Position numbers and translations under genes: made by a program. This document shows, piece after piece, positions 18,001 through 48,700 of a DNA stretch of 64,000 nucleotides (the first letter of the stretch is position 1; each line of letters starts with the position of its first letter). Under the pieces are notes generated by a model that was not told the DNA's origin, made no database searches, and worked only from the letters and a program-made list of their open reading frames with translations. The stretch is from Mizuhopecten yessoensis (lineage: Eukaryota), in assembly GCF_002113885.1 (NCBI RefSeq), contig NW_018406552.1:698308-762307 (forward strand), in the 5' to 3' direction.

Positions 18001-20742
18001 TTGAGGACAAAACCGGAAAGGGACTTTTTCTGTCGGGACCAATAACAACGCAAATGGATGCAAGCTTGTTTAATATCTCAAACGACAAGAATGGGAACCC
18101 GGATTTGTCGATGTGGCACCTAGACCCAAATACAGGAAGTTGGGTTGAAGAAGGGAAATTTAAATATGTTCAAAGTCAAGGCAGGCGTAAGTTGTTGGCT
18201 ACTACTATTGAGGGAATTATTGACCCAAATAATATACCTGACCTAATATTAACCTATACTAAAGTCACCTCAAGAAAGGTTAGACGCAGTTACCAAATAA
18301 ATGCTGATAAACCAGTTCAGTACCGATATGAAACTATCATCAGTAGAGACCCAAATGCAATAAAAGACGGCGCATGTTTCGTGAGGGTTCGTGTATACAA
18401 TGGCTTCAAACTTTTAAATCCCTTGAGAGGTGTTACCGTGAGGGCAGTTACTCAAGAATTATCGGGACCTCGTTTCAAAGTCAAAAGTGATGCAACTACA
18501 AATGACCATGGCATTGCTTGTGTCGGAATATTCTGCAATTCAAAAGTGTTTCTTTACATACCAGATCAACCGCAAATGTACGCTACGGACAAACACGGTC
18601 TACCGAATACCTACATGTTCAAGAACATACACAACCTAACACAGGTAGAGTTCATATCGGTCGATCCTTACGTAGGTGAACAGCGAAGCAGTGACAAAAC
18701 GTACAGTCCTGTGTATGATTATAAACAGCTTCAAGTCTGCATATCTTCCGCCTCAGGAGGATATTTCCAATTCGCACCAATCAAAAAAGAAAACAGACTT
18801 GAACCAGCACTAGGATCATTGAATATACATAACAAGAGGCAGGCCTGGTACCCACGACCAGTCAGCGATCCCCTTCACAAATCGTGTTTCATAAAAATCA
18901 ACATTAAAGTAAGATATCATTAAAAAAAAAAATCGTCAATTGATGTTTAAGCTATATTAAAGTGTTTCATTGAGTCATTCTTTTAAATTGGAGCATATTC
19001 TGCTGTAAATAACACTTTCAAAATGTGCCAATATGATTGCTTGACTTAATTTGAGTTTGATTTTTTCCCTCAGTCGAACATTCACAGTTTTGATATAATC
19101 ACCAAGAGCTTCATTCAGGATGACCCCTCGCAACGTGATGAGTATGGAACTTACTTTACATCTCCCTACTGGGACGAGTCCACAGATCGCCGGTACTCAA
19201 AAGCGGCCTGTATTGAGTTCCGATGTGCCGGGCTAGTTGTGGACGGGGCAACGAAAACACAGAATGTACCGACATTGGTGTACATCTACGTGGCGAGCGA
19301 CGAAGGAGCGAGGTGCACAGTTGAGTAAGTACTGCATCGATGTAGGCATATTTGTAAAAACCTGTCTATTGTGATGTTTTACACAGTGTCTGTATACATA
19401 ATAATTCTTTTTCTGTCATATGTACGATGAACTATATCAGCCATGTCAAAATACACTTAAGCAATTTAATTTTGTTAGAGGTTTGTTGACAATATGTTGT
19501 CAGCAACTACAAAAGCTGTTGGGTTTTGCCAAGTATGTGACAATTGTTTTGTCAAATTCTGCTTTGTTTCTGGGGGTTTTAGCAACACTGTCTTGCGCGT
19601 ATAAGCCTTGACACTTTTCATGCTTTGCACACGTAATTAACATTCATCTTGTTAACACTAGGCTTCTATTAGAATTCAAAGATTGACTACAACCAAATGG
19701 GACACGAACCACAGCTAGAATATATATCATATATATTTTGAAAAGGTGACATTATGGAAGGTCAAAGGGAAGGCGGGAGGGGACCATCATACAGACTAAC
19801 ATTACCAAGAGGAATGATTATGTTTATTACTTGTGCAAAGCTCGAAAAGTGTCAAGGCTTATACGCAGCAATACTGCGTTGTCAAAAATAACAGAAAGCA
19901 AACAAGAACTAAACAGAAAAATCACACATACTTCACAAAATCCATCTTTTGTAGTTGTTGTCAATATATTGTCAAGAAACATCTGACAAAATTGAATTGT
20001 TTAAATGTATTTTTATATGGCTGATATCGGCCATCGTACATATGAGGTATATAATAAACCTTTTTCTTAGATGCAAAATCATGTCACATATTTGCAACGT
20101 CATGTTTGAAATACAGTGGCATTATGACGTCATGCTTTCTCTCATGCGTAATAAATGGCTTTCGTGATATACCAGGCAATATCCTGGTTGAGATAGATGG
20201 ACTGTTTCTTAATGGATTTGTAAACAATTTGAAAATTATCCAAATTAGATAAACGTTTTATACCAACTTCAACTCTATAAAAATTGCAAATTACTGCTGT
20301 ACCTTATCACGCAAATATGAATTTTCGGGAATTTAGTTCAAGCAACCTATTATCGTGAGCTTGAAGTTTCGAAAGGAATGCTCACAGCTATTCATATATG
20401 CGGCGATAATTTTTCTTTGAAACATTGATTATCTCACCAAATATAGGTGATATGTTGTATTGCTGTTGATAGCATATATGGGTCTTTTATTTGAGCCAAA
20501 AACATTCATTTAGTTCCAGAGCCGTTCAAGTAAACCAAACCGGTCTCGGAAACAGTTTTCTGTTTATGGCTGACCCAAGCGATATGTATGGAGAGAGATT
20601 TGGTGTCTTCGTCAGGAGTCAACCAGCTGACGAAGTTAGGCGAATGTGTGAAAGTGGAACAACATCTGGTGCTGTGTCTACCACGATGAAACCAAACAAG
20701 AATCCTGCTCTACAGCTGACGTGTAAAGAAGTACCAAGTTGA
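12011..20742 (+). CDS. CILP-like protein A (cartilage intermediate layer protein family), ~1061 aa, type II membrane-anchored. Exons: 12011-12188, 13602-13649, 14374-14550, 15029-15343, 15583-15691, 16399-16550, 17182-18908, 19074-19324, 20514-20742
   Basis: Nine GT-AG exons sum to 3186 nt in frame. Exon 1 has a hydrophobic segment (LVLIVGSVIAVGVIAAVGVGVGVAVL) after KK. Exon 3 is TSP1 (WTHWDKWSDCSVTCGGGTQVRRRTC). Exon 4 is Cys-rich plus a carboxypeptidase-regulatory-like beta domain. Exons 5-6 are Ig (LCCEAEGYP..YSW...YTCVAES). Exons 7-9 carry CILP motifs: LETFGMF, MWHLDPNTGSWVEEG, CFVRVR, GIACVGIFC, AWYP, CFIKINIK, AACIEFRC, YGERFGVF, CESGT, ALQLTC. Confidence 0.9.
19416..20045. mobile_element. 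Foldback/long-TIR element in intron 8 of gene A
   Basis: ~230-bp diverged inverted arms (19416-~19645 and ~19820-20045; ends TCATATGTACGATG / CATCGTACATATGA) around a ~175-bp spacer. Confidence 0.75.
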
Positions 20743-45770: not shown

Positions 45771-48700
45771 TCAGCCAACTAAATTATCAGACGGTAAATT
45801 CGCCTCACATGTAAACTGAAAGGCATAGCCTGTATCTGGGTTCATTTCGTAATTGTCAATTATATCATTGGCCCCGGTAAAGCAAAGTGACTTAGCAACC
45901 TTTCGGACTTTATTAAAATATATACCAGCATTCGGCCCATAATCATCATGAGGTGTCAAGGATATTTCAAAGTTAGAGTTGGTTATATTGAAGCCGCCCG
46001 ATTGAAAATCCGGTGAAATATTACTGCAAATAAAATAAAACTTGTAAGCATCTACAAAAAATCGTAAAATCCCAGAATTAACAGTACATATCAGCATCAA
46101 ATACGACTTAAATACAGTCTTGCTGAATTCCTTTAACATTTCATGTCCCTCCAAGATGGTGGTTACATTTTTGTTTACTATTTGCAGGCAATGTACACTG
46201 GAAGCAGATTTTTGATGCATTATGAGTAATCAGTGCTCTTCTTAAAAATAAAACGTTGTTTGGCGAATGGATTTTTCGCCTAATGAAGAATTGAACTACT
46301 CGGCAACCGAGCAGTCTAAAACACACTCAGATTAACAAAAGGTTTGGTTAGTGAGGTGGTAGAGCGCTAGGCTTGTGACCTTGAGATGTAAAAATCGACT
46401 TCAAGCAAAGTCTTTATCCATTTATTTAAATTTCATTTATGCTATTGTTTTCAACAGGGCATTTATTAGTGTAAGATGTTATCAAACATACCCTTTGAAC
46501 AGTGTGCAAGGTGGTAGATCTACGGGTAAATGAAACTGCAGAACGGCGAGACACAGATAACTTTTCAACTTTTTTCTAGTTATAAATATGAACCCAAATC
46601 GCAGACAAATCATAACTTTGAAAGGTCGCCTTTCCGTGTCATTTGTTAATAATCTGTTTAGTTTATTGTAAATATTGATGAAATCATAGATCTTTCATTA
46701 TTGTATGCTGCAGCTGTATAAATATCAAGAATTATCATAACAGTTTGAATAAGCATCATTGAATCGTTTATTTATTGCCGCTTAGTAAAATTACTAGAGT
46801 AGCATTTCAAGAATGAAATACATACCTTTTCCTGCAAGAAACTGATCTAGGAACTGTCAGTTTTCCTTCTAATCTCGTAGCGATGATTTTCCCACTGCTC
46901 GGATCTTCATAGGGGCATCTGTATTCTATACATGCCGCTCTATTCAAAATATTGCCAGCCTTTGGGTCTTCTTTTGGTCCTGACGTCATACTTCCGTAAT
47001 AGAAGTTACTTTGGTTATTGTAACTTTCCAGTTTGATACTGACGTTATAGAATGGTGTCTACAAAGGAAATGCCGTACAATATTACCATAAATAAAATTT
47101 GCATATTGAAACTAAAATATCACATCAGATGATATTGTCGTCATGACGATTAACTTGTAACCGTTTATTGCAGAGCAGAACCGAATTAACTGCGAAATTT
47201 TAAAATCCAAAATCAGATTAGGCTTGTTAATGTCTACTGGGGAAAGAACACTCAATGTCCTCCAGGAATATGTCAGTTTATATAATATTTGTAGATCTAT
47301 CATTTTCCCCCTCAAAATAAAGACAAAATAAAGAAAAATGTTAATTATGTCCCTTGCTTAATAGTTGAAAGTATTATTGCTTTTGTAAGACAAGTGGCAT
47401 TTGATCACATGTACACGCATAGCCTTTCATGTGACATTTAAAAGCATAACCACCTACCTTTTTTCCTAAAGCATATAGAAATGCATATTTTCTATAAAAA
47501 CTGTTACTAAAAGATTCAGATATCCACATTCCTGAACAAGAAGCCCATTATATGTTCTACCCCGATTGCTATAGATGTTAATAATTAAAATAATGTAGAC
47601 TGCCATATTTTTTGTTACACATTATCCTAGAAAAGCTTGTTCGCTAAGCCTTAATAATGTTATGAAACGTCGTCATATATCCCATTTAGTAAAACAACAC
47701 ATGCTGAAATGTCTGTTTTTGACAAAATAATAACAAATGCAACAAGGAGTTGTAACAAATGTTGTATGATAAAAACCGAAATAAATACCTGGACCTTGAC
47801 CTTGATGTAGCAGACCTTATATCCAGACTCGCCCTCACGTAGTGGGTACCACGATTCGTCGTAAGAGAGTTTTGATGCATTTGTGTTTTCTTCGAATTTA
47901 TCCGGTGGTCCAAGGAAATGAAAACCGATGTAATAAGCTAATGGCTGTGGATTTTTGCACTCAGGAAGAAAGCCTTTTGTATAAACAGGACCAGGCGGAT
48001 GAAAGAAAGCTGGAATCTGATATATTTTTTTTAACAGTATTTCGGTTGCACTTAATGACGTACTGCTTAATTGACTTGGCATCAATTGATTGGCAGCTAT
48101 ATGTAAGCGCTCGATTCCAGTATCGACAAATATTATAGCATTTTTTCTACATATTGTTCGAACACATGCGTTACCGTTTATATCAGTTTGGGCTTCTGTA
48201 TAGCCCGTGAAATTAATGTTATTGTCCGAGTGCGTCGGGTCTATAACTAGCGCAAACACAGACACATTATTTGCCGGGTACTTAAGTGCTGAACTCTTGA
48301 AGACTTTAACATTGACGTAGCAGTAATGTATACGAAGACCATCCAGCATGGAGGCTTCAGTCAAGTAGTTCACTTGTGCATCGTAGGTAGAGTCCGATCC
48401 ATTGTCGAGAGTGAAATTTCGTGCTCTATCAAAAAGTAGTGCTCTGTGCACGTGTATTTTTCTTGCCGGTACTGAAATATAAACAACTATCACTTCATAG
48501 TATCGAAAAATGTACATCTATTTTGCGTGATGCAATAGTGCGTTTCTGCTTCAAGCGCATTAAGGTAAAATAACTGAATTATTTAATAGTATCTCTCAAA
48601 GTTGAAATAGAAAGAGAATCTGACGACATTTTGCTAGAAATAATATATAATGTCTATAAAACTGCTATGTTGGGTGAAACCTCAGATTTTGCGTTAAATG

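What the first reader, a model, noticed from the sequence alone, without database searches (positions are those of the whole stretch)
18186..48445. Site-1-protease-type RxLL motif replaces the CILP furin site in three paralogues
Seen: immediately after the conserved W..EG.F.Y strand, gene A has QG-R-RKLL-A (18186-18197) and gene B has QG-K-RRLL-A (40968-40979). The very divergent gene C has H-RALL-F (48434-48445, minus), about 10 residues after its signal peptide and at a roughly equivalent position before the first C-[FY]-V-x-V motif. Established: human CILP1 has a furin-type RRNKR here (my recall), and R-x-L-L (RRLL, RKLL) is the classic SKI-1/S1P (MBTPS1) substrate motif. Inference: these proteins are matured in the Golgi by S1P rather than furin, which releases the C-terminal module from the anchored precursors. 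Retention in gene C suggests the free N-terminus matters.
Basis: partly seen in the sequence, partly recalled or inferred. Interest (0 to 1): 0.7.

Follow-up and report, generated by a model that had tools for sequence, protein, structure and literature searches.

The report
Bivalve CILP proteins swap cleavage signal
Two scallop cartilage-protein (CILP) genes, like most of their closest relatives in clams, carry an R-R/K-L-L signal in the loop where other CILPs carry a furin signal, so they are likely cut by a different enzyme (site-1 protease), and the two pieces are predicted to stay loosely attached rather than fall apart.

Summary
The three motifs are at the stated coordinates in Yesso scallop CILP-like genes. 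For A (RKLL) and B (RRLL) the signal is real. Of 152 family proteins examined, 106 carry a furin R-x-K/R-R in this loop and 15 carry R-[RK]-L-L. Fourteen of those 15 fall in one supported clade (96/96) with clam orthologues; chance expectation is 0.003 per loop. The scallop has an S1P gene whose own prodomain keeps RRLL. S1P cleavage is likely (about 0.65-0.7) but untested.

(1) Gene C's RALL is present in 1 of 3 gene-C family proteins and is not securely in the same position. (2) Clam orthologues keep the motif without a membrane anchor. (3) The site lies in a GAIN/ZU5-like sandwich, and the strand after the cut belongs to that sandwich in the model, so the pieces probably stay associated (complex prediction: weak support). 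The same genome also holds three furin-type CILPs, and an oyster relative has a furin site. Verdict: a new processing variant of a known family.

The parts
12011..20742 (+). Gene A, CILP-like, 1061 aa (P0001): N-terminal signal anchor, TSP1, CarboxypepD-like, Ig, CILP_5th, CILP, GAIN/ZU5-like sandwich, transthyretin-like (CILP_8th) and CILP_C domains
   Evidence: exon mapping; Pfam
12104..12181 (+). Gene A hydrophobic signal anchor (residues ~32-57); type II topology inferred
   Evidence: best 19-aa hydropathy 2.84 at residue 32; topology inferred
17715..18227 (+). Gene A GAIN-B/ZU5-like beta-sandwich (residues 505-675) that contains the site
   Evidence: model; 9 GAIN/ZU5 rows of 50 cover model residues 1-172, Z 5.7-7.5
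18186..18197 (+). RKLL, predicted S1P P4-P1 in gene A (residues 662-665); predicted new N-terminus ATTIEG
   Evidence: loop between strands in model
18204..18227 (+). Strand after the site (residues 668-675), equivalent to the GAIN strand that leads into the GPS kink; predicted to tie the C-fragment to the N-fragment
   Evidence: weak complex support
18252..18362 (+). Subfamily-specific long beta-hairpin insertion (residues ~684-720), absent from vertebrate and furin-type CILPs
   Evidence: strands 180-193 and 202-216 (pLDDT under 50 in the full-length model); alignments
31514..43204 (+). Gene B, CILP-like, 1071 aa (P0002), same architecture as A
40968..40979 (+). RRLL, predicted S1P P4-P1 in gene B (residues 674-677); predicted new N-terminus AKTLIEG
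45771..50375 (-). Gene C, 415 aa (P0180): signal peptide plus a stand-alone CILP C-terminal module; no GAIN-like domain and no post-site strand; four coding exons
48434..48445 (-). RALL in gene C (residues 36-39); fits the S1P consensus but is not conserved in the two relatives found

Best explanation
Genes A and B belong to a mainly bivalve CILP subfamily whose processing loop reads R-[R/K]-L-L instead of the furin signal, and these precursors are likely cut after the second leucine by site-1 protease, with the two fragments predicted to remain non-covalently joined. Shown: the motif, its position in the furin loop, its conservation, the absence of any R-x-K/R-R in A and B, and an S1P gene in the genome. 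Predicted: the loop lies in a GAIN/ZU5-like beta-sandwich, and the first strand of the 44.6-kDa C-fragment is part of that sandwich. Inferred: type II topology puts the loop in the lumen; S1P cuts in the ER/cis-medial Golgi, earlier than furin would; with no cysteine in the sandwich before the site in A or B, the link is non-covalent, so shedding of the C-module would need a further trigger. Gene C encodes the C-module already free behind a signal peptide; its RALL may be cut but is probably a lineage-specific or chance site.
For: Motif classes in the loop: 15 RxLL, 106 R-x-K/R-R, 1 both, 27 neither, 3 not scorable, of 152; background 12 in 106,543 residues. Careful tree without the loop: clade 96/96 of 15 rows, 14 RxLL; quick tree of 140 rows: 14 of 16. 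P3 is R or K in 15 of 15; three members have only one basic pair (SRRLL, GRKLL, ARKLL); only 2 of 15 have even a minimal RxxR. A basic-pair cut would leave Leu (or Lys/Arg) at P1'; after this family's furin sites P1' is L or I in 3 of 106. S1P needs P4 Arg and cut RNLL best among tested 4-mers (PMC12067269, passages); consensus R-X-aliphatic-Z with RRLL optimal (PMC8310232, passages). Scallop S1P gene: MBTPS1_4th over cut-off, E 4e-26, catalytic D and H exons, prodomain RTLK and RRLL|RA kept. Loop is coil between strands 143-148 and 164-169 of a pLDDT 85.6 model. Nine GAIN/ZU5 structures align over model 1-172, past the site at 158-161; model 171 matches BAI3 855, next to the cleavage-site L856. 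Six homologues with HFS/HLT triads have a short turn here. Fragment pair: score 0.53, best control 0.02, weak support; contacts agree 52% or more, partner pLDDT 39 or more; mark reached by 39 of 65 eukaryotic solved pairs and 2 of 126 unrelated, but passes at 0.60 or under were 5 of 78 true and all 4 passing mismatches.
Against: No cleavage data exist here; a four-residue motif does not prove processing. All 15 motifs also hold a basic pair that meets the broad PC motif (K/R)-Xn-(K/R). The 15-of-15 identity at P4, P2, P1 is by construction of the search pattern. Three of the 14 clade rows are from this scallop and 7 of the other 11 have no species name; only the best 150 of 809 hits were seen. 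An oyster member has RKRR instead (P0007). GAIN/ZU5 Z-scores (5.7-7.5, rmsd 3.7-4.3 A, 122-138 aligned) are under the tool's level of 8 for more than a common arrangement. Human CILPs are described as giving free N- and C-terminal fragments (PMC12839030, PMC7251193), which argues that fragments can part. Gene C: motif in 1 of 3 relatives.
Confidence: 0.62

Rival explanations
1. S1P cuts and the C-terminal module is released freely into the medium.
For: Human CILP1/2 are reported as free fragments. No cysteine in the sandwich before the site in 9 of 10 proteins checked, so no disulfide tether there. Gene C shows that the C-module is encoded as an independent secreted protein. SPRING is a known case of S1P shedding a lumenal domain from an N-terminal anchor.
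Against: The post-site strand is inside the GAIN/ZU5-like sandwich; GAIN fragments stay together after cleavage (PMC3321182); weak complex support (0.53 against 0.02). Clam orthologues have no anchor to be released from.
Confidence: 0.14
2. A basic-residue convertase (furin, PC5, PC1/2-type) cuts at the remaining KR/RR/RK pair; the leucines are incidental.
For: P3 basic in 15 of 15; P5 basic in 11 of 15; P6 Gly in 12 of 15. The general PC motif allows a simple pair. The loop is a furin loop in 106 of 152 relatives.
Against: No R-x-K/R-R in any of the 15; minimal RxxR in 2 of 15. The cut would leave L or a basic residue at P1', seen in 3 and 5 of 106 furin sites of this family. It does not explain why LL is kept in proteins only 30-38% identical.
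Confidence: 0.1
3. The subfamily has lost processing: R-[RK]-L-L is a decayed furin site whose leucines pack against the fold or serve as a binding motif.
For: LL directly precedes a strand; the full-length model gives residues 663-665 a helical turn. 27 of 152 relatives have neither motif, so cleavage here is not universal.
Against: Loop flanks and length vary (W to P1 19-26) while R-[RK]-L-L stays fixed. The domain model shows coil. An oyster member in the same clade has a full furin site, which fits selection for cleavage as such.
Confidence: 0.12
4. Gene C's RALL is the inherited homologue of the A/B site and is needed to free its N-terminus.
For: Perfect RxLL 12 residues after the signal peptide; chance 0.4% in 20 positions; a global alignment can place it on RKLL; the paralogue has KSLL at the same column.
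Against: The paralogue lacks the required P4 Arg and has Pro at P1'; the third relative has no such motif. The local profile alignment does not reach the motif. Signal peptidase already gives a free N-terminus (inference). This rival is not exclusive with the best explanation; its confidence is for gene C alone.
Confidence: 0.25

Closest known systems
Vertebrate CILP1/CILP2 (cartilage intermediate layer proteins)
   Same: TSP1, Ig, CILP_5th, CILP and CILP_C domains in the same order; processing loop at the same place (bird CILP2 RGRR); furin cleavage into N and C fragments is published (PMC12839030, PMC7251193, passages seen).
   Different: A and B have a signal anchor rather than a cleavable signal peptide, R-[RK]-L-L rather than R-x-K/R-R, and a long hairpin insertion after the site.
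S1P/SKI-1 (MBTPS1) substrates with RxLL: S1P's own C site RRLL, SPRING RNLL
   Same: P4 Arg, P2 Leu, P1 Leu in a lumenal loop; SPRING is also N-terminally anchored (PMC12067269 and PMC8310232, passages). Fam20C is another case (title only, in a reference list; paper not held).
   Different: In SPRING the site lies between the anchor and the globular domain; here it is about 600 residues from the anchor and inside a folded domain. No cleavage shown.
GAIN subdomain B / ZU5 / HFS autoproteolytic domains
   Same: Beta-sandwich matches 8 GAIN structures and ankyrin ZU5 over the same range; sequence homologues with HFS/HLT triads align here. I recall that Liao et al. 2014 already placed CILP and FAM171 in this superfamily; I saw only its title in reference lists and could not open it.
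   Different: A and B lack the HL|T/S or HFS triad; the predicted cut is by a separate protease one hairpin earlier; no helical subdomain A and no membrane segment follows.
Furin-type CILP-like genes of the same scallop (G000:C5578, L004-L006)
   Same: Same domain and loop, 33-34% identical over the matched 105 residues.
   Different: All three keep KRRKR and lack the hairpin insertion.

Membership tests
CILP family (genes A, B) | TSP1 + Ig + CILP_5th + CILP + CILP_C domain order | tested here: met
   P0001 passes Pfam cut-offs for TSP_1, Ig_3, CILP_5th, CILP, CILP_C; B by precomputed domains
CILP family (genes A, B) | Furin consensus R-x-K/R-R in the processing loop | tested here: not met
   none anywhere in P0001-P0003; this is the variant feature
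CILP family (genes A, B) | Cleavable N-terminal signal peptide | tested here: not met
   long hydrophobic segment at residues 32-57 / 44-69 instead; no dedicated predictor was available
CILP family (gene C) | Full domain set | tested here: not met
   only CILP_C (E 2e-13) and a sub-threshold CILP_8th: a stand-alone C-terminal module
S1P substrates | P4 Arg, P2 aliphatic, P1 Leu/Lys | tested here: met
   RKLL, RRLL, RALL against the consensus
S1P substrates | Motif conserved in orthologues (A/B subfamily) | tested here: met
   14 of 15 rows of the 96/96 clade
S1P substrates | Motif conserved in orthologues (gene C) | tested here: not met
   1 of 3; small sample
S1P substrates | Site in an accessible lumenal loop | tested here: inconclusive
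   coil in domain model, short helical turn in full model; solvent exposure not computed; topology inferred
S1P substrates | Enzyme present with RRLL specificity | tested here: met
   MBTPS1 gene with catalytic exons and prodomain RTLK and RRLL; co-expression not tested
S1P substrates | S1P-dependent cleavage after the motif | not testable with these tools
   needs cell or N-terminomics experiment
Furin/PC substrates | R-x-K/R-R, or a basic pair with a tolerated P1' | tested here: not met
   R-x-K/R-R 0 of 15; basic pair present 15 of 15 but followed by L or a basic residue
GAIN-B/ZU5 domains | Beta-sandwich fold | tested here: inconclusive
   9 of 50 rows, Z 5.7-7.5, rmsd 3.7-4.3, 122-138 aligned, all over model 1-172; below Z 8 but consistent and backed by HFS-bearing homologues
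GAIN-B/ZU5 domains | HL|T/S or HFS autoproteolysis triad | tested here: not met
   the aligned position reads D-P-N-N in A

The most novel reading that the evidence does not exclude
This bivalve CILP subfamily is an S1P-armed, GAIN-like latch: S1P cuts early in the secretory pathway, the C-terminal effector module stays held by a shared beta-strand on an anchored or matrix-bound stalk until force or a partner pulls it off, gene C is the always-free form of the same module, and the family switches between furin and S1P at this one loop (S1P gained in bivalves and perhaps separately in Lingula, furin regained in oysters) to tune where maturation happens.
Probability: 0.18. Interest if true: 0.65.

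Novelty: new variant of a known kind. Interest (0 to 1): 0.4.

Why it matters
Few secreted or matrix substrates of S1P are known, and my searches found none described in molluscs. A family in which one loop carries a furin signal in most members and an S1P signal in one clade, with both kinds in one genome, is a natural test of why a precursor uses one convertase or the other (timing, compartment, link to lipid or ER-stress control). The structural placement also gives a testable prediction for human CILP1/2: their fragments may stay associated through a shared strand. The biological role of these scallop proteins remains unshown, which limits the score.

Tried and rejected
RNA support for gene C's splice joint: three raw-read RNA runs gave no depth over its exons, and one contig set gave a 159-nt piece at 47807-47965; the model rests on the database protein P0180 and GT-AG ends. 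The run search listed no holder on record as RNA, which is no evidence on expression. More gene-C orthologues: protein search gave only 3 proteins, metagenome scan none, ESM Atlas only low-score bacterial clusters, best 0.83. Whole-protein fold searches returned Ig domains only; Foldseek on the domain model listed pilin/transthyretin-like folds and no GAIN row, which is not evidence against. One origin for all 15 RxLL rows including Lingula was rejected at p-AU 0.026 (long branch, group chosen after seeing a tree); a clade of the 14 without the oyster protein was not rejected, p-AU 0.095, so 'reversal in oyster' is not shown. The 140-row tree is the quick version. P0019's RFLL lies in the next strand after a furin site and was not counted as RxLL. 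A G-K/R-R amidation reading was considered and set aside: 3 of 15 lack a basic residue after the Gly position and the N-fragment is a large folded protein (inference). Literature: searches for CILP+furin, CILP+mollusc/bivalve, ZU5/GAIN+CILP, S1P+RRLL listed no paper on an S1P site in CILP proteins; only listings and abstract starts were seen, most subscription papers are not held, and no supplements were read, so shell or mucus proteomes could hold relevant peptides. Earlier scan notes: nothing found.
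Full report
Identity. The long exons at 17160-18923 and 39921-41759 belong to two CILP1-like proteins named from Mizuhopecten yessoensis, P0001 (1061 aa, gene A) and P0002 (1071 aa, gene B). Gene C on the minus strand is P0180, 415 aa. A passes Pfam cut-offs for TSP1, Ig, CILP_5th, CILP and CILP_C; C has only CILP_C and a weak CILP_8th. A and B start with a long hydrophobic segment (hydropathy 2.84-2.85), read as a type II anchor by inference. 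C starts with a signal peptide on its own exon.

Observation. RKLL, RRLL and RALL are at the stated coordinates. In A and B the motif is the only RxLL, and neither protein has an R-x-K/R-R anywhere.

Family survey. A search of 50%-identity representatives gave 809 hits, of which the best 150 were returned. With P0002 and P0003 added, 152 proteins were anchored on the conserved W and the next loop was classified: 106 furin-type, 15 RxLL, 1 both (a chance RFLL in the next strand), 27 neither, 3 not scorable. RxLL outside the loop occurs 12 times in 106,543 residues. Trees were built without the loop. The quick 140-row tree groups 14 RxLL rows with one furin row and one short fragment reading RRQL (SH-aLRT 94). 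The careful 30-row tree gives a 96/96 clade of 14 RxLL rows plus the oyster protein P0007. Named members are from Mactra, Ruditapes, Mercenaria and Mya; three rows are this scallop's; seven are unnamed. Lingula has RRLL outside the clade. One origin for all 15 is rejected (p-AU 0.026), with the caveat of a long branch; whether the oyster reverted is open (p-AU 0.095). The same scallop genome holds a further RRLL paralogue (P0003) and three genes with KRRKR in this loop. So the swap marks a subfamily.

Which protease. S1P recognises R-X-aliphatic-Z with RRLL optimal, and RRLL can be cut as early as the ER/cis-Golgi (PMC8310232, passages). It needs Arg at P4 and cut RNLL best of the 4-mers tested (PMC12067269, passages). 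All 15 motifs are R-[RK]-L-L; P4, P2 and P1 were fixed by my search pattern, P3 was not. Three have a single basic pair and only two a minimal RxxR. A cut at the pair would leave Leu or a basic residue at P1'; in this family's 106 furin sites P1' is Q or S in 77, L or I in 3, K or R in 5. The scallop has an MBTPS1 gene with catalytic-domain exons and prodomain RTLK and RRLL sites, matching the human B and C sites given. No cleavage was observed.

Does the cut release the C-module? A model of residues 505-902 (mean pLDDT 85.6) puts RKLL in coil between two strands. Nine of 50 structural matches are GAIN domains or ankyrin ZU5; they are the only rows covering the first domain, and all run to model residue 171-172, ten residues past the site (Z 5.7-7.5, rmsd 3.7-4.3). 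These Z values are below the tool's level of 8, so the fold call leans on agreement among rows and on six sequence homologues with HFS/HLT triads that have a short turn where CILPs have the protease loop. Model residue 171 matches BAI3 855, beside the cleavage-site L856 (PMC3321182, passages). So the strand after RKLL is the one leading to the (here lost) autoproteolysis kink. GAIN fragments stay together after cleavage (PMC11697300, passages). A complex prediction of the two fragments gave weak support: 0.53 against best control 0.02, contact agreement 52% or more, partner pLDDT 39 or more, alignments not used; passes at 0.60 or under were 5 of 78 solved pairs and all 4 passing mismatches. 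Against this, human CILPs are described as free fragments, and no disulfide could tie the pieces at this domain. The anchor is not general: clam orthologues have a signal peptide and VWA domain yet keep RxLL. That CILP has a ZU5-like domain is, by my recall, in Liao et al. 2014, which I could not open; I do not claim it as new.

Gene C. It is a secreted stand-alone C-module lacking the sandwich and its post-site strand. Its paralogue (71% identical) reads KSLL followed by Pro, and a third relative (61%) has no motif. RALL is 37 residues before the first conserved cysteine against 51-86 in the subfamily; the local profile alignment begins after it. An exact RxLL by chance is 0.4% in 20 positions, so a real, lineage-specific site is possible (about 0.25-0.3), but the claim of retention is not supported.

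Verdict. The A/B observation is real and extends to a bivalve clade; S1P maturation is the best reading; free release and the gene-C argument are weak. Searches found no paper on an S1P site in CILPs (listings only). New variant of a known kind; interest 0.4.

Noticed in passing
window 59089-62902 (+): A fourth related gene: four EGF-like exons followed by exons for a lone CILP_C-like domain (profile hits E 5e-9, 5e-7, 9e-5 within the window; EGF hits; CILP part has no Pfam hit). It lacks the processing loop. 5' end not found.
   Followed up: partly
G000:C76476 (L009-L011), 1700-26200: A second cluster with a B-like gene (P0003, RRLL, same anchor exon) and a C-like gene (P0181); here both lie on the same strand, whereas B and C face each other in the window.
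   Followed up: partly
G000:C5578 (L004-L006): Three CILP-like genes with KRRKR furin sites; the C-terminal half is in one long open frame.
   Followed up: partly
window 18252-18362 and the matching part of gene B: A long subfamily-specific hairpin has N-C-D at its tip in B, P0003 and three clam proteins, giving an odd cysteine count (11) in the C-fragment; A has Ala and 10. A free cysteine could link chains.
   Followed up: no
P0139, P0143, P0148-P0150, P0152: Unnamed homologues keep an HFS/HLT triad and lack the protease loop; two scanned have weak FAM171A1-2-B_N hits. They look like the self-cleaving ancestral form.
   Followed up: partly
P0039 (Saccoglossus): Holds the sandwich plus C-module twice, each with its own furin site.
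   Followed up: no
window 44400-45230 and 49275-49455: Repeat fragments in gene C's flank and first intron attract many partly matching RNA reads from other copies; likely a SINE/MITE-type element.
   Followed up: no
window ~29950-30130: A run of N (assembly gap) between genes A and B.
   Followed up: no
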